Assembly (NCBI GenBank): GCA_965215275.1
Contig: OZ244044.1
Location: 672,001 to 736,000 of the forward strand
Source of the DNA: Thermodesulfobacteriota bacterium
GTDB lineage: Bacteria > Desulfobacterota_D > UBA1144 > Nemesobacterales > JAJCZQ01
Direction of reading: 5' to 3'
Length of the DNA stretch: 64,000 nucleotides
In this document: positions 281-64,000 of the stretch, piece after piece
Layout: every line of letters begins with the position of its first letter
Numbering within the stretch: position 1 is the first letter of the stretch
The notes under the pieces: generated by a model
Database searches by the model: none
Told to the model about the DNA's origin: nothing
What the model saw: only the letters and a program-made list of their open reading frames with translations
Translations under genes and position numbers: made by a program

Positions 281-784
281 ATGAAGTTCATCGCTTATGG
301 TAAGATCCTGAAACCGCACGGACTTAAAGGGGAGATCAAAGTCCTTCCATACAGCACCAGCCCTGAAAACTTCAAGCAGGTCCAGTACATATATACAGAA
401 CCGGACAGTAAAAACCCTCAAAGACACAAAGTATCAGATAAAAGGTTCCATAAACACTTTATCATTGCCAAGCTCCAGAACGTCAACAGTATAGAAGAAG
501 CAGAAGCACTGCGGAACAAGGAAGTACACGTTGACAGAAACGAACTGCCTTCAAAACAAGAGGATGAATACTACTGGTTTGAACTTATCGGACTGAACGT
601 TTACGACGAGAACGAGTGCCTGATAGGTCAGGTGGATTCTCTGATAGATAATACCGCTCAGCCAATACTTGTTATTAAAAACGGTTCTGAAGAGTACATG
701 GTTCCGTTCATAGACCGCTTCGTTAAGGAAGTCGATCTTAACAGTTCAAAAATAGCAGTGGAGTCCATAGCGGATTTAATTTAG
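281..784 (+). CDS. rimM: 16S rRNA processing protein RimM
   Basis: GKILKPHGLKGEIKV and EDEYYWFELIGLNV motifs; operon context. Confidence 0.95.
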   Translation: MKFIAYGKILKPHGLKGEIKVLPYSTSPENFKQVQYIYTEPDSKNPQRHKVSDKRFHKHFIIAKLQNVNSIEEAEALRNKEVHVDRNELPSKQEDEYYWFELIGLNVYDENECLIGQVDSLIDNTAQPILVIKNGSEEYMVPFIDRFVKEVDLNSSKIAVESIADLI

Positions 785-808
785 CAGGTCGTTCAGTCCA
801 AAACTGCC

Positions 809-2110
809 ATGAAGTACGATATTATCACAATTTTTCCTGGTTTTTTTGACTCGATATTCTCGTCTGGAGTGATCAAGAAAGCCCTTGATAGTTCTATAAT
901 AGACGTTAAGGTCCACGATCTCAGAGACTACGCTGAAAACAAGCACAGATCGGTAGATGACACACCTTACGGTGGGGGCGGGGGAATGCTGATGAGTGCC
1001 AAACCCCTTTCAAAAGCCATTGAGAACATAAAAAAAAATGACGAAAAATCCCTTGTAGTCCTCACCTCTCCGCAAGGCGAGATACTGAACGACGATATGG
1101 TAAACGAGCTAAAGAATTATGAGCAGATGGTAATTTTATGCGGAAGGTACGAAGGAATAGACGAGAGGATCAGAGAACTTTACGTGAATAGAGAAATTTC
1201 AATTGGCGACTACGTTGTCTCGGGAGGAGAATACGCAGCGGTAATAATAGTGGATGCTGTCTCAAGGAACATCCCAGGTGTACTGGGAAACAAGGATTCA
1301 GCCGTTAATGATTCATATAGAAATGGTTTGCTTGAACACCCTCATTACACAAAACCTGAACTGTTCAAAGGTGCAAGAGTACCTTCGGTACTTTTATCAG
1401 GTAACCACCGGCAAATAAATAAATGGAGGCTTACCGAAAGTATAAAGAGAACGTTCATTAATCGTCCGGAACTTCTGGACCATGCAAAACTGGACGTTGA
1501 TGGAACGCAGCAACTTATAGAGGTCCAGAACGAGTTAAAACCTGATTTTAAAGTTTATATTGCATTAATTCACTATCCCGTTTACAATAGGAACTTCAAA
1601 AAAATCACAACTTCGTTTACGAATCTGGATGCTCACGACATTGCAAGAGCGGCAAAGACCTATGGTGTCAGTAAATTCTATCTTGTAAATCCAAACCAGG
1701 ACCAGAGAGCATTGGTAACGAAAGTGATCGAGCACTGGACCAAAGGGGCCGGAGTAGAATTTAATCCAACCCGTAAAGAGGCTTTGGAAACAGTAGATAT
1801 CAAAAAAGATCTTGAAGAAGTGCTGAACGAAATAGAAGAAACAGAGGGGACCAGACCAAAAGTGATCGCCACGGACGCAAGGATCAAGAAAAATAATATG
1901 GTTGGTTATAAAGAGTTAAGGAACGAAATATTGAAAGAAGAACGACCGTTCCTGATCCTTTTCGGAACCGGATGGGGATTGGATGATGATATTATAGATT
2001 CTGCAGACTACACCCTAAAACCCATTAAAGGATTTGAAGACTATAACCATCTGTCGGTCAGAAGTGCGGCATCAATAGTGTTAGACAGGCTGTTATGCTG
2101 TACAATATAA
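809..2110 (+). CDS. trmD: tRNA (guanine-N1)-methyltransferase TrmD fused to a C-terminal second SPOUT-type RNA methyltransferase domain (DUF2168-like)
   Basis: N-terminal VDDTPYGGGGGM, CGRYEGIDER and SIGDYVVSGGE; C-terminal IALIHYPVYN..DAHDIAR..FGTGWGL..YNHLSVRSAA. Confidence 0.92.
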   Translation: MKYDIITIFPGFFDSIFSSGVIKKALDSSIIDVKVHDLRDYAENKHRSVDDTPYGGGGGMLMSAKPLSKAIENIKKNDEKSLVVLTSPQGEILNDDMVNELKNYEQMVILCGRYEGIDERIRELYVNREISIGDYVVSGGEYAAVIIVDAVSRNIPGVLGNKDSAVNDSYRNGLLEHPHYTKPELFKGARVPSVLLSGNHRQINKWRLTESIKRTFINRPELLDHAKLDVDGTQQLIEVQNELKPDFKVYIALIHYPVYNRNFKKITTSFTNLDAHDIARAAKTYGVSKFYLVNPNQDQRALVTKVIEHWTKGAGVEFNPTRKEALETVDIKKDLEEVLNEIEETEGTRPKVIATDARIKKNNMVGYKELRNEILKEERPFLILFGTGWGLDDDIIDSADYTLKPIKGFEDYNHLSVRSAASIVLDRLLCCTI

Positions 2111-3268: not shown

Positions 3269-3465
3269 AAATATGCTGGATATTATAACGCTGAATTTTG
3301 AGAATTATACAGACAGCTATGCTGAATGAACAAAGACGGCGTTCTTAACAAAACTATATCTGACGGAAAGATCTCAGTTAGTTCAATACCTTTGAAAGGA
3401 CCGCTGCTAATTTTTTGGGACTTATATACTTAACTCCACAAAATTTAACACTTTATTTTTATCGT

Positions 3466-5078
<1,613 letters not shown>

Positions 5079-5082
<4 letters not shown>

Positions 5083-6002
5083 CCAACTAATCTCTTATAA
5101 GTCAGTCTTTTATTAAATGATCTGTCACACAACGAGTTAATTCTCTCCGTAGTGTGTCTCTTAACATTACCATCATTTAATCTGAAAGAAAACTCATTTA
5201 CATATCTGCCTATATGCTTTCTGTTTATTCTACCATGAAACACTCCGTCGAAACCCCTCTTTAATACTGCCCAGAAAGACTCTACACCATTCGTGCTTGC
5301 CATTCCTTTTACATATTCCTTAACGCTGTGATTAACAGAATCATGGTTATATCCTGCTACACCTCTTTTCCAGTGACTCGCATCATCCGTATAAAGTTGT
5401 GAACCACTTTCTATACTTTTATAAACTGCATTATGAACTGTAGATAAACTTGTATCTTCAACAGGCATTGCTTTAGTCTTGCCAGTTCGTTCCCTCATAC
5501 CAAGTATAACGGATTTTGTTTTTGTACTTTTTCCCTGATTATGTGGTGTTCTTTTATCTCTATGTTTGTTTTTTTCTTTACCTCCCACATAGGTCTCATC
5601 TATTTCTACTATACCTTTAAGCATTAAACTATCTTCCCCGCATGCCTCTCGTATCCTATGAAGCATAAACCACGCTGTCTTCTGCGTGACCCCTATCTCT
5701 TTTGCCATCTGAACCGATGATATACCTTTTCTTGCCGTTACAACTAAATACATTACATATATCCATTTGTGGAGTTGAACATGACTTTTACCAAATATCG
5801 TGCCACTGCGAACCGTAAAGTGCTTATAACAACCATTGCATTTATGGTAAGGTTTTCTCTTTAATCTTGTAGTATCAAAACATCCACATTCAGGACAAAA
5901 CACTCCATTCTTCCATCTTCTACTTTCCAGATATTCAATCGCTTTATCTTCATCAGAAAATTTAGACATAAGATCGTATGTGCTTATTGTGCTTTTACTC
6001 AT
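5079..6002 (-). CDS. IS1595-family (ISXO2-like) transposase
   Basis: Zn ribbon CPECG..CNGC; VEIDETYVGG, LYTDD, TNGVESFWAVLKRG, YVNEFSFRLN. Confidence 0.95.
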
Positions 6003-6053
6003 TACTTTTCCTCCGTTATTATATCCATTAATATAATAATTTACCTTGTGGAG

Positions 6054-8554
6054 TCAAGTATATAAGTCCCAATTTTTTATCCGAGACCTTATCTTCCTTC
6101 TGATAACAACGGATACAGGTATAAGCATCAGAGATGCTACTGCTGTGAGCATATCAGAAGCAGCTTCGTTCTGCTCGGAGACCGCACATCCTCCTCCACC
6201 TGCATCACTACCTGATGGTGTTGGTCTTCGTGTCGGTGGTCTTGTTGTTGGTGGGTCTGTTGGTCCTGGCGGCGTGGTTGTTACCCTGATAGTGAATCTC
6301 AGCTCGTCCGTATCTCCATCTTCATCCGTTACCGTATATGTATAACTGCCGGAAGATACAGCAGTTGGTGTTCCGCTGATCACTCGGTCAGTTTCACTGA
6401 AAGTAAGTCCAGCAGGTAAAGAAAGAGGGGACAGGCTGTAGGTTAATTCTCCATTCCCTGCTGTTGCCTCAGGCAGTGTTTCCTTTATTGCAGTTCCCGG
6501 CACGTAATTCTTATCTGGTATGGTCCAGCTGTTAAACGTCGGTTTATTACCAGACATATGACCATAGACCTTAATGTTCCATGAGTGTAAGGTCCCCGCA
6601 CCTGCGACTGAAGCGTTGGTTATCTTCAAGGTCCACTCTCCGGCAGGGTCCGTTCCCAAGTGATTAGCTAAACCAAAACGATGCTCTCTGCCTGTATAGT
6701 CAAAGTCGTCTACAGTAAGAGATCTGCCAGATAATAAAAGTGATAAAGCTTCTGCTGGATATGCCTCAGTGAGTTTTGACACTCTACCGTCAGGGGAAGT
6801 TATTTCTATACTTAAAAAAGGAAAGAAAGGGTGAGTGAAATTGATACCGATCTCTATAAATTCCGTAAATACCTCAGTACCTGTTATATCGATATCAGGT
6901 ACTGTAAGTGTGAAAACAGCGGAAACATCTTTTGCATCTTCTCCCGTTGTGAATCCTGGTATAACCGTATCGATATTACCCGAGGAAACCGTCACGGGTC
7001 TCATTGGCGGTGGAACGTTGGTCCAGCTTTCGGCAAGTTCTGCTGCAGCAGCAGCGTCTACAATGCCAAAACCGAATTTTGGATTGTAACGATAATATTC
7101 TGAATCAGAACCGTATTGAAGTGCCACTCTAGTCCATTGTGTGTCGGTAAAACCTAACTGTACGTCATGACTGGTTGAACCTGCCAGTATCAGTTTCAGG
7201 TCTCGCCAGCTAAGATCACTGTTTACCTCCCGCAGCAGTGCTGCTACTCCTGAAACGACAGCAGCTGAATTTGACGTTCCAGGGAACTCAAAACTGTAAC
7301 CGTCGTTATTGTCGGTAGTTACAATACCAGAACCCGGTGCACATACCCACAGATTGAAACCCTCTTCTGAAAAGGAACTTTTAGTAACACTAGATGAAGT
7401 CTTACCGCTCTCTGCTGAACATACAGTGGTTACAGCGTAGTAGTTGGAATACTCATCAAAATTAGCCTGCTCTGCTCCTTCATGTCCGTCCCCTGCTGCC
7501 CACACGTAAAATACTCCTTTACCACCAAATCCTTCTCTTATACCCGTTCTCACTCCTTCTTCCCATTCTGATGAAGCCTCTGTAAGAACCGGCAGGTCCT
7601 TCGGTCCCCAGTTGTTGACCGATACAGCCGTTATATCCTTATTACGGACCATGGCATCCTTTGCGTTAGCATCACTGAAGTTATCAGCTAAATTATAACT
7701 GTAGATGCCTGCCTGAGGTGCTACACCTCTTACTCCAAGGCTGTTATCACCCACTGCTGCTATAATGCCAGCCACACGTGTACCACGACCACTTGAAGGA
7801 CTGTACAGATCACCGCTTCCTGAATAATCATGAGAAAGTGTGGTATCCACGTTATCAGCAAGGTCCTCATGATCTGTGTCCATACCATGATCTACCACTG
7901 CTACGTTAATCCCAGCTCCAAATATACTATCATCCCAGACCTCTTCTATGTTTATATCTATATCTTCTTCAGAGGTTTGGAATATCAGCTCGCCACTTAC
8001 TTGCACATCAACTGCTGGACGTTTCAGATACCACTGACACCCGTATAAGGGATCATTTGGAAAATTGGTAGTGATATCTGTACAGTCGCCGAGTAAGTTT
8101 TGAGAATCAGCTAATAAAACTCTGATATTGTAGGGTGTACTTCCACTGCTTCCCACAACTATATAGTACATTCCCTGTCTTAAGCGGGTTTGTAGAGTGG
8201 CCGTTGCTGCGTTACCTGACAAAGTCACTTCAGCAGTACTTGCTATCAGACCATCATTGCTGTCACATAACTGTAAGCTGTATCCCAGATCATTGGAGAA
8301 GGGGAAATTTGCCTTTATATCTACAATAAGATCTTCATTTATGTTTGTCCGAAAGTAATGCGGACCAGAACCGGCAGCTAAACTTCCACTACGTGTACTT
8401 CCGGCTACTCTCAACGTAGCTTCGGTCGTTGCACTGGAGTCACAGTTATTAACGCTGGTCTGACCATATGCACCAACGTTTACAAAGCACAGAAGAAAGA
8501 AAAAGGGAATTAATAACTTATGGGGGGGGGTATTACTCTGAATAAGATGTTCAT
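6054..8554 (-). CDS. Surface S8/kexin-like pseudoprotease, copy 1 (P-domain, one putative Ig domain, GGGGC-TM-basic tail); frameshifted at a C9 tract just before the signal-peptide core
   Basis: VAVVDHG, RGTRVAG, WAAGDG, GTSNSA, GEWTLKITN; signal peptide KLLIPFFFLLCFVNVGAYG is in frame upstream of 8414; ATG 8554 is one base out of frame. Confidence 0.85.
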
Positions 8555-29392: not shown

Positions 29393-32180
29393 GGGGAATT
29401 ATATATTTAACTGTGCGAAAATAAAATATAGCCTTTGTATATTTATACACTTGACATTCATTAATAATACAAAGTAAAATAAAAAGGTTATGAACATTTT
29501 ATTTAGAATATCCCCCCCCCCACCATAAATTATTAATTCCCTTTTTCTTTTTTCTGTGCCTTGTAAACGTTAGTGCATATGGTCAGACCAGCATTAATAA
29601 CTGTGACTCCAGTGCAACGACCGAAGCTACGTTGAGAGTAGCCGGAAGTACACGTAGTGGAAGTTTAGCTGCCGGTTCTGGTCCGCATTACTTTCGGACA
29701 AACATAAATGAAGATCTTATTGTAGATATAAAGGCAAATTTCCCCTTCTCCAATGATCTGGGATACAGCTTACAGTTATGTGACAGCAATGATGGTCTGA
29801 TAGCAAGTACTGCTGAAGTGACTTTGTCAGGTAACGCAGCAACGGCCACTCTACAAACCCGCCTCAGAACGGGAACGTACTATATAGTTGTAGGAAGCAG
29901 TGGTGCTACATCCTATACAGTTCAAGTTCTATTAGCTGATTCTAGTGAACTCTTTGAGATCTGTCAAATTATCACTACCAATTTTCCAAATGATCCCTTA
30001 TACGGCTGTCAGTGGTATCTGAAACGTCCAGCAGTTGATGTGCAAGTAAGTGGCGAGCTGATATTCCAAACCTCTGGAGAAGATATAGATATAAACATAG
30101 AAGAGGTCTGGGATGATAGTGTATTTGGAGCTGAGATTAACGTAGCGGTTGTAGATCATGGCATGGACACAGATCATGAGGACCTTGCTGATAACGTAGA
30201 TACCACCCTTTCTCATGATTACTCAGGAAGCGGTGATCTGTACAGTCCTTTCAGTGGTCGTGGTACACGTGTAGCTGGCATTATAGCAGCAGTGGGTGAT
30301 AACAGCCTTGGAGTAAGAGGTGTAGCACCACAGGCAAACATCTACAGTTATAATTTAGCTGGTAACTTCAGTGATGCTAATGCAAAGGACGCCATGATCC
30401 GTAATATGGATACAACGGCTGTATCGGTCAACAACTGGGGACCGAAGGACCTGCCGGTTCTTACAGAGGCTTCATCAGAGTGGGAAGAAGGAGTGAGAAC
30501 TGGTATAAGAGAAGGGTTTGGTGGTAAAGGAGTATTTTACGTATGGGCGGCAGGGGACGGACATGAAGGATCAGATCAGGCTAATTTTGATGAGTATTCC
30601 AACTATTACGCTGTAACTACCGTATGTTCAGCAGAGATCAGTAATATTACAGGCAATAACAATATTATTAAGAGTTCTTTTTCAGAAGAGGGGTTCAATC
30701 TGTGGGTATGTGCACCGGGTTCTGATATTGTAACTACCAACAATAACGACGGTTATACTTTTGAGTTCCCTGGAACTTCAAATTCAGCTGCGGTCGTTTC
30801 AGGGATAGCAGCACTGATTAGAGAGGTAAACAGTGATCTCAGCTGGCGGGACCTGAAACTGATACTGGCAGGTTCAGCCAGTCATGACATACAGTTAGGT
30901 TTTACCGACACAGCCTGGAGACCAGTAGCATTTAAATACGGTTCTGATTCAGAACGTTATCGTCACAATCCAAAGTTCGGTTTTGGCATGGCAGACGCTG
31001 CTGCGGCAGCAGAACTTGCAGGAAGCTGGACCAATGTTCCACCGCCAATGAGACCTCTGACGGTTTCCTCGGGTAATATCGATACAGTTATCCCGGACTT
31101 CACAACGGGAGAAGACGTTTCCGATGTTTTCACACTGACAGTACCTGATATTGATATACCAGGTACTGAGGTCTTTACGGAATTTATAGAGATAGGTATC
31201 AATTTCACTCACCCTTTCTTTCCTTTTTTAGATATAGAAATAACTTCCCCTGACGGTACCGTATCAAAACTTGTTGAGGCATATCCAGCAGACGCAATAT
31301 CACATTTATCTGACAGATCTGTTACTGTAAACGACTTTAAGTACACGGGCAGAGAGCACCGTTTTGGTTTAGCCAATCACCTGGGAACAGACCCTGCCGG
31401 AGAGTGGACTTTGAAAATAACTAATAATTCACCTTCAGGTACGGGGACCTTACACTCATGGAACATTAAGGTCTATGGTCATATGTCTGGGGATACACCT
31501 ACGTTTAACAGCTGGACTATACCAGATAAGAACTACGTGCCAGGAATTGCAGTAAAGGAAACACTGCCTGAGGCAACAGCAGGGAATGGAGAATTAACCT
31601 ACAGCCTTTCCCCTCTTTCTTTACCTGTTGGACTTACTTTCAGTGAAACTGACAGAGTGATCAGCGGAACACCAACTGCTGTATCTTCCGGCAGTTATAC
31701 ATATACGGTAACGGATGAAGATGGAGATACGGACGAACTCATCTTTACCATCAGGGTAACGACTACGCCACCAGGACCGACAGACCCACCAACAACAGGA
31801 CCACCGACACGAAGACCGACATCATCAGGTACAGGCGGAGGTGGAGGAGGATGTGCGGTCTCCGATCAGAACGAAGCTGCTTCTGATCTGCTCACAGCAT
31901 TGGCATCTCTGATGCTTATACCTGTATCCGTTGTGATAAGAAGAAAGATAAGGTCTCGGATAAAGACATAGCAATGCGGTATTTTCCAAGCGTTGAACTA
32001 ACTGAGAGCTTTCCGTCAGGATATCTACTGGCTGCTTACGGGAGAAGAAGTGTATTTATCTTTTTAAACCTTCTTTTTTGATATTCAATGTTTTCAGTAC
32101 CCTAGGGTCCCACTGCAAGATCTTCCATCCGTTTAAAACATCGTCTTTGTTCATTTAGCATAGCTACTTGTATAATTCCC
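29393..32180 (+). mobile_element. Non-autonomous IS1595-type cassette carrying S8 copy 2
   Basis: Left end (g)gggaattatatatttaact, right end rc gggaattatacaagtagct; 8-bp direct repeat taaattaa at 29385-29392 and 32181-32188. Confidence 0.75.
29490..31971 (+). CDS. Surface S8/kexin-like pseudoprotease, copy 2; frameshifted at a C10 tract (29512-29521)
   Basis: Close paralogue of copy 1; ATG 29490 stops just after the tract, and C9 would fuse it to HKLLIPFFFFLCLVNVSAYG. Confidence 0.85.
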
Positions 32181-42575: not shown

Positions 42576-42699
42576 ACCTGCTGCAGAACAAAGATTATAA
42601 ATACAATTTATGGTTTTGAAATATAAAATGTTAGGGGACTATATACTTAAGTATCCAAACTACTTAAAAAAAGCAAGGGAATAAGGTAAAATTACAAAT

Positions 42700-43902
42700 A
42701 TGAAAGAAGGTAAGACAATAAGAACGGTAAGGCAGAGGTTGAGATCAAACAACAGGAAAAAGTTTCATAAACTTTCCTCTACTGCTGGCTGTTGCAGGTT
42801 TGTATGGAATCACTTTACAGGGATTTTAAGGGATAACGATTTTAATGATGGTTATGGTCATGAGAGTTTAGGGAATTTTTTAAGAGAGTTTAAGAAAGAA
42901 GAAAAGAACTACTTTCTGAAAGAAGCATCTGCTTACATACTTCAGCATTATTTACTGGACCTTACAAATGCCTGTAAGAGATACAGGGATGGAAAATCGG
43001 GACAACCTAAATTCAAGAGTAAATTAAAAACTACTCCTTCGTTTCCGGTAAATTATCAGTCAGCTAAACTGTCAGACAATAACTGGGTCCGTATTTTAAA
43101 GGTTGGATGGTTCAGGTTGGCAGGTAAGAATCCTTATCCTGATGGAAAGTTCCTTTCTGGCAGGATCAAGAAGGAATGCGGTAAGTGGTATGCGTACCTT
43201 AGCTATGAGATAGATGAAACTAAAAAGGAAAAGAAAGAAGTAAGAGTTGTAGCAATGGACAGGAATTCAAGACAGGTTACGCTGTCTGACGGACAGGTTT
43301 TTAAGTTATCTGATGATGAACTTACAGAAGCAAAGATACGCAGATACCAAAAGAAACTTGCACGTCAGGAAGAGGGAAGTAACAGGTGGAGAATTACTAA
43401 GGAAAGGTTGCAGAAACTTCACAGGAAGCTGGCAAACAGACAGAAGGACTGGAGACATCAGGTTACAAGAAAGATCTCCGATCTTTATGACGTTCCTGTA
43501 CTTGAGAGACTTAATACACAAGGGATGACAGCCAGAAAGAAATGGAAGAACTTTCGCAAGATGAACAGGAACATTCGTGCTACTGGCTGGTTTGATATGA
43601 AAAGGATGCTGGATTATAAGTGTAATGCTACTGAAGAAGTTCCAGCACCATATACCAGTCAAACCTGTTCTGAATGCGGACACAGATCTCCTGACAACAG
43701 AAGATCGCAATCCAGATTTAAGTGTATATCTTGCGGTTATGAAGTTAATGCTGACTTAAATGCTGCATTTAACCAGCTTGAAACTGGAATAAAACAAATT
43801 ATAGCCTCAGGGAAAGGGGTGATTGGACGGGGAGACTGCAGAGGGGTTGGGGACAGGAACTGGTCTATGACTCGTCAAAGAGAACTTTTAGTATCTGTTT
43901 AG
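42700..43902 (+). CDS. tnpB: RNA-guided endonuclease TnpB
   Basis: GCCRFVWN, PKFKSK, RuvC I VAMDRN, RuvC II VLERL, TSQTCSECG..CISCG, RuvC III NADLNAA. Confidence 0.93.
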   Translation: MKEGKTIRTVRQRLRSNNRKKFHKLSSTAGCCRFVWNHFTGILRDNDFNDGYGHESLGNFLREFKKEEKNYFLKEASAYILQHYLLDLTNACKRYRDGKSGQPKFKSKLKTTPSFPVNYQSAKLSDNNWVRILKVGWFRLAGKNPYPDGKFLSGRIKKECGKWYAYLSYEIDETKKEKKEVRVVAMDRNSRQVTLSDGQVFKLSDDELTEAKIRRYQKKLARQEEGSNRWRITKERLQKLHRKLANRQKDWRHQVTRKISDLYDVPVLERLNTQGMTARKKWKNFRKMNRNIRATGWFDMKRMLDYKCNATEEVPAPYTSQTCSECGHRSPDNRRSQSRFKCISCGYEVNADLNAAFNQLETGIKQIIASGKGVIGRGDCRGVGDRNWSMTRQRELLVSV

Positions 43903-43929
43903 TTTTGGCTACTTAAGTATATAGTTCCC
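43800..43929 (+). ncRNA. Candidate omegaRNA scaffold overlapping the tnpB 3' end
   Basis: G-rich tail after RuvC III with pairable arms gcctc/ggggt, ttggacggg/ctcgtcaa and agact/ggtct; position typical of TnpB RNAs. Confidence 0.5.
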
Positions 43930-43950
43930 AAATGTTAAACTTTCAAGGAG

Positions 43951-63892: not shown

Positions 63893-64000
63893 TTTCTATC
63901 CTCCAATTTGATTTTTTTGTTTCTCCCGTCCTGTAATAAACTTAGGGAATTATATACTCTATTATACAAATACTAAATATACTGTTCTGCAAGCAGAGTC

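What the first reader, a model, noticed from the sequence alone, without database searches (positions are those of the whole stretch)
42626..43937. TnpB RNA-guided nuclease packaged alone inside IS1595-type inverted repeats with an 8-bp TSD
Seen: tnpB with all three RuvC acidic residues (MDRN, LERL, NADLN) and a Zn finger is the only gene in a 1296-bp element. The element has 24/26-matching terminal inverted repeats and a perfect 8-bp TSD (aaatgtta). Its right end matches the left end of the intact IS1595 at 3417 at 15 of the first 17 nt (gggaactatatacttaa vs gggacttatatacttaa). Known: tnpB normally travels in IS200/605 (HUH TnpA, hairpin ends, no TSD, insertion next to a fixed TAM) or IS607, while IS1595 elements make 8-bp TSDs. 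Inference: this is a tnpB lineage captured by, and moved in trans by, an IS1595 DDE transposase. AT-rich 8-mer targeting plus a TSD breaks the usual TAM/flank-guide homing logic, so guide definition or function may differ. TnpB-DDE associations may already be catalogued, so novelty needs checking.
Basis: partly seen in the sequence, partly recalled or inferred. Interest (0 to 1): 0.9.

Follow-up and report, generated by a model that had tools for sequence, protein, structure and literature searches.

The report
TnpB riding IS1595 transposon ends
A 1.3-kb mobile element carries only an RNA-guided nuclease gene (tnpB) between the inverted ends of an IS1595-type transposon, is likely moved by a transposase encoded elsewhere in the genome, and likely uses its guide RNA to cut empty copies of its own insertion site, an arrangement reported in outline in 2023.

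Summary
Confirmed. Element 42634-43929 holds only tnpB between 24/26 inverted repeats with a perfect 8-bp TSD. Two more copies have their own perfect TSDs, and a related genome has the empty site with one 8-mer. All 19 full-size tnpB loci of this genome lie in such ends, as do many relatives elsewhere. The likeliest helper is an IS1595 outside the window (end 28/28 identical), not the one at 3417.

Homing logic is adapted, not broken. The right repeat's tip is predicted to form the omegaRNA pseudoknot; by register with IS605-type loci, TSD base 1 is the last scaffold base and the guide starts at base 2. A purine precedes the left TSD in 83 of 85 elements (mirror side 43 of 85; tnpB-less controls 11 of 18): a short TAM that the repeat's terminal C cannot mimic. 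TnpB is under purifying selection. Expression and cleavage are untested.

TnpB in DDE inverted repeats, solo copies included, was published (Altae-Tran 2023; DDE-5 has 'TA 8 bp upstream'); IS1595 is not named as partner in what I read. This scan noted the same kind before on other DNA. New variant of a known kind.

The parts
42624..42626 (+). Predicted TAM core TAA (two bases outside the left TSD plus TSD base 1)
   Evidence: TA|A at all 3 family-A copies, at a fourth left junction in runs X6/X8 and in the empty site of G002; function inferred
42626..42633 (+). Left copy of the 8-bp target-site duplication
   Evidence: single copy in the empty site
42634..42659 (+). Left terminal inverted repeat, IS1595-type
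   Evidence: 24/26 to right end; first 28 nt identical to an end of the IS1595 at G000:1516018-1519071
42700..43902 (+). tnpB, 400 aa; RuvC D187 (43258), E269 (43504), D352 (43753); C4 Zn finger
   Evidence: dN/dS 0.18 against the copy at G000:202418-203706
43804..43930 (+). Predicted omegaRNA scaffold core: stem-loop 43804-43820 whose loop pairs with the tip of the right repeat, stem 43826-43830/43872-43876; last base = TSD base 1; true 5' end unknown
   Evidence: covariation in 36 relatives; register against IS605-type loci; not shown to be expressed
43904..43929 (-). Right terminal inverted repeat; its last 6 nt double as the predicted pseudoknot strand
43930..43937 (+). Right copy of the 8-bp target-site duplication
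43931..43946 (+). Predicted guide (TSD bases 2-8 plus host flank; length assumed from other TnpBs)
   Evidence: inference; the 16-mer starting at 43930 has no other match with fewer than 2 mismatches in the genome
3417..6070 (-). IS1595 element with 307-aa transposase (5079-6002) and a methylase-HNH passenger; same end family, but not the closest helper candidate

Best explanation
This is a tnpB-only element with IS1595-type inverted ends and an 8-bp target duplication, likely moved in trans by an IS1595 DDE transposase, whose TnpB likely acts as a homing nuclease that cuts the element-free version of its own insertion site. Shown by sequence: ends, duplication, several insertion sites, empty site, intact RuvC residues under purifying selection, one-sided flank bias, covarying RNA stems. 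Inferred steps: (1) the transposase (best candidate G000:1516018-1519071) inserts the cassette into an AT-rich 8-mer and duplicates it; (2) an omegaRNA overlapping the tnpB 3' end runs through the right repeat, whose last six bases pair with the stem-loop-1 loop; TSD base 1 is the last scaffold base and TSD bases 2-8 plus host flank are the guide; (3) the TAM is the two bases outside the left TSD plus TSD base 1 (here TAA; minimal form purine, then not G); (4) in a single-copy empty allele TAM and guide target are adjacent, so it is cut and repaired from the filled allele; at the filled right junction the TAM's purine position is the repeat's terminal C, and at the filled left junction only 7 guide bases match, so the element spares itself; (5) insertions that land beside a TAM are kept or spread, the rest are lost, which yields the observed bias.
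For: Ends and TSDs: 19 of 19 full-size tnpB loci in G000 lie in these repeats (18, the 19th), 12 of 19 with TSD mismatch <=1; 15 of 15 tnpB loci in G041 carry the right-end motif; 79 of 180 distinct loci examined have a TSD with <=1 mismatch and 32 more a repeat pair with a worse TSD. No IS1595 transposase hit in any tnpB locus examined. G000 has no NF033518 IS607 match and one weak Y1 hit away from any tnpB. Empty site with one 8-mer. TAM signal: purine just 5' of the left TSD in 83 of 85 elements against 43 of 85 at the mirror position and 11 of 18 / 8 of 18 on the two sides of tnpB-less IS1595 controls; C depleted at -1 (1 vs 13) and -2 (4 vs 19); a further subfamily with other repeats has G there in 9 of 9. 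In G000 the motif follows the TnpB family: TA in 3 of 3 family A, A at -1 in 8 of 8 family B, G at -1 in 7 of 8 family C, G in 0 of 22 control positions. RNA: 3 helices, 96.9% of cells paired, 8 pairs with changes on both sides; pseudoknot helix 93.5% paired with 5+1 compensatory cells; the subfamily with other repeats changed loop and repeat tip together. Register: the partner of loop positions 3-7 ends 2 nt before the end in 23 IS605-type loci (4.17 of 5 pairs) but 1 nt before the repeat tip in 63 of 85 elements where the loop was found (4.73 of 5), and TSD base 1 is A 58, C 14, T 13, G 0, like the last base of the IS605-type ends (A 22, C 1); it is mismatched in 0 of 25 imperfect TSDs, against 3-8 of 25 at the other positions. 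D/E/D intact in 78 of 78 long ORFs; dN/dS 0.10-0.32 in 15 of 15 pairs, same-genome copies included. No purine bias at TSD base 8 (40 of 85), so the target looks like the single-copy site rather than a double-TSD excision scar. Precedent: restorative and non-restorative homing by IS605/IS607 TnpB (PMC13565253); a flanking base built into the scaffold in IS607 (PMC10711439).
Against: Nothing functional was measured: no expression, cleavage or transposition data. The elements are related, so the p-values overstate; the tracking of the flank motif on the tree is partly host composition (control position -5 also tracked: 5 of 300 shuffles). Four of the six pseudoknot pairs show no compensatory change, and the single sequence folds no better than shuffles (z +1.18). 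Family A's TA is also the commonest dinucleotide beside control insertions (6 of 22), so for this family alone the TAM evidence is weak. IS605-type ends used for the register were set by motif, not by empty sites. 98% TAM-flanked sites is a lot to explain by selection after insertion alone, and 9 of 10 elements with unrelated left and right 8-mers still have the purine. A cut-and-paste break could be repaired from a sister chromosome without TnpB (argument in PMC13565253); how IS1595 leaves its donor site is not known to me.
Confidence: 0.7

Rival explanations
1. TnpB helps choose the insertion site: the TnpB-omegaRNA complex, reading only its short TAM, biases the IS1595 transposase towards TAM-flanked 8-mers and sets the orientation, so the bias is made at insertion, not by later selection.
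For: Bias is nearly absolute (83 of 85; 9 of 9) and follows the TnpB family within one genome; it persists in 9 of 10 elements whose two 8-mers no longer match.
Against: No known contact between TnpB and a DDE transposase; the same ends host two distant TnpB clades; unmatched 8-mers are also common in tnpB-less IS1595 elements (10 of 18) and recombination between copies would keep the purine.
Confidence: 0.12
2. Same homing role but another guide register: the guide starts at TSD base 1 (IS605 rule) or the whole TSD is scaffold (Fanzor1 rule).
For: The repeat's terminal C can pair with loop position 2, so the register is a homology argument; Fanzor scaffolds include the TSD (PMC10711439).
Against: Register test favours one base. 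A whole-TSD scaffold would leave TAM plus target intact at the filled right junction and predicts a motif in TSD bases 5-8, which is not seen.
Confidence: 0.1
3. TnpB is not a homing nuclease here: it is cargo or a regulator (for example binding the TAM plus 7-nt match at the left junction), and the flank bias comes from asymmetric target choice by the transposase on these ends.
For: The left junction of every filled allele does offer TAM plus a 7-nt match; different families may use different transposases.
Against: Catalytic triad intact in 78 of 78 and dN/dS <=0.32; tnpB-less IS1595 elements show no one-sided bias; TSD decay is not higher in tnpB elements (7 of 19 with >=2 mismatches) than in controls (10 of 18).
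Confidence: 0.07
4. One-off insertion of an IS1341-type element into a pre-existing IS1595 MITE.
For: The TnpB and RNA scaffold are of IS200/605 descent.
Against: The IS605-type right-end hairpin is gone and replaced by the repeat, whose tip covaries with the RNA loop; the whole unit moves with new TSDs across many genomes.
Confidence: 0.01

Closest known systems
DDE-transposase-associated TnpB branches DDE-1 to DDE-6, especially DDE-5 (Altae-Tran et al. 2023, PNAS, PMC10691335)
   Same: TnpB between inverted terminal repeats; solo tnpB between ends nearly identical to those of transposase-bearing elements, read as mobilisation in trans. The supplement says DDE-5 systems have a TA motif 8 bp upstream of the predicted end, exactly the family-A pattern here.
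   Different: The text I read names only IS630 (DDE-6); a 2026 review lists ISL2, IS630, IS1031; IS1595 occurs once in the supplement, in a profile list. Those branches were defined by a DDE gene within 1 kb; here none was found in any locus. No TSD, RNA register or TAM model is given in what I read. Fig. 4, Table S1 and Additional Files 10-11 were not visible and could show that DDE-5 is this family.
IS1341 (tnpB-only IS200/IS605 derivatives)
   Same: tnpB as sole gene, moved in trans; IS605-type TnpB and omegaRNA core with a 7-nt loop pairing with the element's end.
   Different: Inverted repeats and 8-bp TSD instead of hairpin ends and no TSD; TAM separated from the left end by the TSD; helper is a DDE, not a Y1, enzyme.
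IS607 TnpB (ISXfa1) and Fanzors in TIR transposons (Yoon et al. 2023, PMC10711439)
   Same: The RNA scaffold boundary is moved to absorb flanking sequence imposed by the transposase.
   Different: Here one base of a variable 8-bp TSD is predicted to be absorbed and the other seven become guide; in IS607 the base is fixed by the serine recombinase, and in Fanzors the whole TSD is scaffold.
Non-autonomous IS1595-family derivatives with passenger genes
   Same: GG-type repeats, 8-bp TSD (family traits per PMC8101967), passenger gene without transposase. The end motif resembles the ISNwi1 group (recalled from ISfinder/Siguier reviews, not tested; one search gave no defining text).
   Different: The passenger is an RNA-guided nuclease whose RNA uses the transposon end itself.

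Membership tests
IS200/IS605 family (IS1341 group) | tnpB with RuvC triad and Zn finger | tested here: met
   scores below the cut-off of the narrower IS200_TnpB model (160 of 425 bits)
IS200/IS605 family (IS1341 group) | No terminal inverted repeats and no TSD; hairpin ends (PMC13565253) | tested here: not met
   24/26 repeats, 8-bp TSD, single 8-mer in the empty site
IS200/IS605 family (IS1341 group) | Y1 TnpA in cis or in trans | tested here: inconclusive
   one weak PF01797 hit in G000 (E 1.3e-5), not beside a tnpB
IS607 family | Serine recombinase; no TIR, no TSD | tested here: not met
   no NF033518 match in G000; TIR and TSD present
IS1595 family, non-autonomous derivative | 8-bp TSD | tested here: met
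   3 of 3 family-A copies; empty site
IS1595 family, non-autonomous derivative | Terminal repeats shared with a resident IS1595 transposase element | tested here: met
   28/28 and 24/28 to G000:1516018-1519071, which encodes a 326-aa transposase
IS1595 family, autonomous element | Own DDE_Tnp_IS1595 transposase | tested here: not met
   none in the element or in any tnpB locus examined
IS1595 family, non-autonomous derivative | Mobilisation by that transposase | not testable with these tools
   needs a transposition assay
OMEGA system | Structured omegaRNA at the element's 3' end with a pseudoknot next to the guide | tested here: met
   by covariation only; no Rfam family matches
OMEGA system | omegaRNA expressed; TAM- and guide-dependent DNA cleavage | not testable with these tools
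   TAM inferred from flank bias only
DDE-5 branch of Altae-Tran 2023 | TA motif 8 bp upstream of the end | tested here: met
   3 of 3 family-A copies; across the wider set TA is only 14 of 85, other lineages have TG, GG, GA, AG
DDE-5 branch of Altae-Tran 2023 | Place in that branch of the TnpB tree; DDE gene within 1 kb | not testable with these tools
   branch sequences (Table S1, Additional Files) not held; no DDE gene of the IS1595 type seen inside our loci

The most novel reading that the evidence does not exclude
TnpB and an IS1595 DDE transposase cooperate in trans: a TnpB-omegaRNA complex with a near-minimal TAM (one purine plus a non-G) steers where and in which orientation the transposase inserts the cassette, which would make this a two-part, nuclease-active bridge between OMEGA homing and guided integration, arisen at least twice.
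Probability: 0.12. Interest if true: 0.85.

Novelty: new variant of a known kind. Interest (0 to 1): 0.57.

Why it matters
A 2026 review (PMC13565253; section 6.2 and passages) treats TnpB on bacterial DDE transposons as rare, unexplained and in need of characterisation. This family is abundant and diverse, keeps its nuclease under selection, and gives exact predictions (first guide base, TAM, self-protection by the repeat's terminal C) that one TAM screen and one transposition assay can test. It is a prokaryotic parallel to the capture of Fanzors by TIR transposons, with a different answer to the TSD problem. If the flank bias is the TAM, these ~400-aa nucleases have very short, lineage-specific TAMs (TAA, TGW, purine-rich), which is useful for editing tools.

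Tried and rejected
Self-target escape: I tested whether left TSDs decay faster in tnpB elements; 7 of 19 have >=2 mismatches against 10 of 18 tnpB-less IS1595 elements in G000, so rejected. The IS at 3417 as helper: ends only 20-21/28 alike. Double-TSD scar as the target: no purine bias at TSD base 8. Single-protein scan of GTDB contigs: 1 of 80 loci had these ends, the rest were distant TnpBs (one archaeal row passed the motif score by chance, without a repeat pair or TSD); metagenome scan: 1 of 80, scan stopped after 3 of 64 parts; viral scan: 1 close relative of 40, without the ends; 1 of 151 genomes of G041's phylum, G041 itself; not found in the 4 other genomes of G000's family (two are 80-83% complete). 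Plasmid searches gave only ~35%-identical TnpBs, no RNA-end match, and 5 IS1595 transposases that I did not open. Rfam: no family. Promoter scan: 3 sites against 3.6 expected. No RNA holder listed among public runs. Reads: 8 runs laid, no contig joined across the element; one raw-read run had no reads. Empty site of the third copy: flanks too diverged in G002/G003 to read. A maximum-likelihood tree of 148 rows did not finish; FastTree and a 32-row quick tree were used. One-clade test for all TIR-housed TnpBs: p-AU 0.043, borderline. No structure or complex prediction was run.

Full report
Observation. The element spans 42634-43929 (1296 bp), both flanks read AAATGTTA, and the ends match at 24 of 26. 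It holds one gene, tnpB (400 aa; NF040570, 214 bits), with D187, E269, D352 and a C4 Zn finger. A 24/26 inverted repeat occurred in 0 of 300,000 random pairs. The genome has two more copies, 96-97% identical, each with its own perfect 8-bp duplication; one has a frameshifted tnpB. G002, a genome of the same family, has the two flanks joined by a single AAATGCTA, with the same TA in front, so the 8-mer is a true duplication.

A family, not an accident. G000 has 19 full-size tnpB loci in three families (A 3, B 8, C 8; B and C about 27-30% identical to A), and all 19 lie between the same kind of repeat; 12 of 19 have a TSD with at most one mismatch. Relatives of family A occur in 25 of 101 genomes of the window's order, 23 of them in one genus, and in Candidatus Oxydemutator (Gammaproteobacteria) and 18 of 100 of its relatives. 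In that genome 15 of 15 tnpB loci carry the right-end motif. I fetched most but not all matches. Of 180 distinct loci, 79 had a TSD with <=1 mismatch, 32 a repeat pair with a worse TSD, 28 a right end with a degenerate left end, and 41 no match to this end motif. Of those 41, 20 belong to a subfamily with other repeats; 17 of the 20 have a recognisable right end and 9 a good 8-bp TSD. No locus held an IS1595 transposase. FastTree puts the TIR-housed proteins in two distant clades; a one-clade test was borderline against a single origin (p-AU 0.043, 32 rows).

The helper. G000 has many IS1595 transposase loci with the same end type and 8-bp TSDs. The closest ends belong to G000:1516018-1519071 (28/28 with the left end, 24/28 with the right; 326-aa transposase); the IS at window 3417-6070 matches at 20-21 of 28. 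There is no IS607 transposase match and only one weak Y1 hit in the genome. IS1595 members are usually flanked by 8-bp TSDs (PMC8101967, passages). Mobilisation in trans is inferred, not shown.

The RNA. An alignment of the last 150 nt of 36 family-A-clade elements (36 of 73, picked by hand for spread) gives two covarying stems. The 7-nt loop of the first stem is complementary to the last six bases of the right repeat. With this pseudoknot, 96.9% of cells pair; the pseudoknot helix is 93.5% paired with compensatory changes at 2 of 6 pairs, and slid controls fall to 31-50%. The subfamily with other repeats has loop AGGCGCT and tip AGCGCC, three further paired changes, and there the right end differs from the left end at a base that the pairing needs. 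In 23 IS605-type loci the partner of loop positions 3-7 ends two bases before the element's end; in 63 of 85 TIR elements where the loop was found it ends one base before (IS605-type ends set by motif). So TSD base 1 stands where the last scaffold base stands. It is A 58, C 14, T 13 and never G, like the IS605-type last base (A 22, C 1), and it is the only TSD position never mismatched among 25 imperfect TSDs. IS607 TnpB likewise builds a flanking base into its scaffold (PMC10711439, sections 25-26). The window sequence alone folds no better than shuffles and Rfam has no match.

The TAM. IS1595 transposase elements without tnpB show 11 of 18 and 8 of 18. C is depleted at -1 and -2. The other subfamily has G in 9 of 9. 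Within G000 the motif follows the TnpB family: TA in 3 of 3 A copies (and at a fourth left junction in runs X6 and X8), A in 8 of 8 B, G in 7 of 8 C (TG in 6), while G is absent at 22 control positions, 20 of them in G000. Against: kin are not independent; on the tree a control position also tracked; TA is common beside control insertions (6 of 22).

Selection. The triad is intact in 78 of 78 ORFs of at least 330 aa. dN/dS is 0.10-0.32 in 15 of 15 pairs, 0.18 between the window copy and its sister, although a DDE enzyme should need only the ends (inference).

Mechanism. In an empty allele the order is TAM (two flank bases plus TSD base 1), TSD bases 2-8, right flank, which is what the predicted guide reads. 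In the filled allele the right junction has the repeat's terminal C where the TAM needs a purine, and the left junction offers only seven matching bases. A one-purine TAM is thus the least needed to tell empty from filled. The lack of bias at TSD base 8 (40 of 85) points to the single-copy site, not a scar that keeps both copies. Cutting and repair from the filled copy is the known role of IS605 and IS607 TnpB, both after excision and against naive alleles (PMC13565253, passages). I put this at 0.7. The main rival is that TnpB biases insertion itself (0.12): the bias is almost absolute and holds in 9 of 10 elements whose two 8-mers no longer match, but recombination between copies explains that as well.

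What is known. Altae-Tran et al. 2023 (PMC10691335; I read parts 3, 4 and 6 of 8 of the main text, passages, and passages of the supplement PDF) report six DDE-associated TnpB branches with inverted repeats and solo copies between the same ends, and note that DDE-5 has a TA motif 8 bp upstream of the end. That is family A's pattern, so DDE-5 may be this family or a parallel one; Fig. 4, Table S1 and Additional Files 10-11 were not visible. The 2026 review names ISL2, IS630 and IS1031 as partners (section 6.2). Seven literature searches (listings only, apart from the four papers named) found no paper naming IS1595 as a TnpB carrier; most subscription journals are not covered. Those notes are not independent evidence.

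Verdict. Real, mobile and widespread in a few bacterial groups. It works like an OMEGA homing system, is built as a non-autonomous IS1595 derivative, and is not a member of IS200/605 or IS607 by its ends. New variant of a known kind; interest 0.57, carried by the exact and cheap tests it offers for an open question.

Noticed in passing
L264 (G019:C4) 385-539 and tnpB 554-1753, minus strand: A TnpB of the family-A clade without the inverted repeats is followed by the same RNA stems and then a mini CRISPR-like array: three repeat starts 66 bp apart (two full 39-nt repeats with 27-nt spacers), each full repeat ending in the same TTCCC tip plus three bases; the repeat occurs nowhere else in that genome. 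Possible TnpB-to-Cas12 step.
   Followed up: partly
L422-L441 (G277, G281, G283, G285, G287, G289, G295, G297): A ~470-aa TnpB subfamily in a second type of inverted repeat (GGGGCTTC / GAAGCGCC), 8-bp TSD, G at -1 in 9 of 9; its helper transposase was not identified.
   Followed up: partly
window 3417-6070: The IS1595 carries an N6/N4 methylase-HNH passenger (3466-4494) and a long (CTCTG)n run at about 4715-4880 in front of it, a possible phase-variation switch.
   Followed up: no
window 29394-32180: A 779-aa subtilase-like ORF (29632-31971; family label from my reading of the sequence, not scanned) lies between IS1595-type ends without a transposase (17/22 repeats, TSD not matched); a repeat pair of similar size and ends is at G000:1273849-1276602, and a near-identical gene is at window 6054-8414. 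Possibly passenger cassettes moved by the same transposases.
   Followed up: partly
window 63945-64000: Right end of a family-B tnpB element (G000:735945-737502, perfect 8-bp TSD) begins at the window's edge.
   Followed up: yes
G000:1616480-1619604: Two family-B elements sit back to back, one inserted a few bases outside the other's left TSD.
   Followed up: partly
G000:1516018-1519071: The best helper IS1595 carries two passenger ORFs (200 and 381 aa; one looks like a methylase), and its transposase has a short tandem repeat near the C terminus.
   Followed up: no
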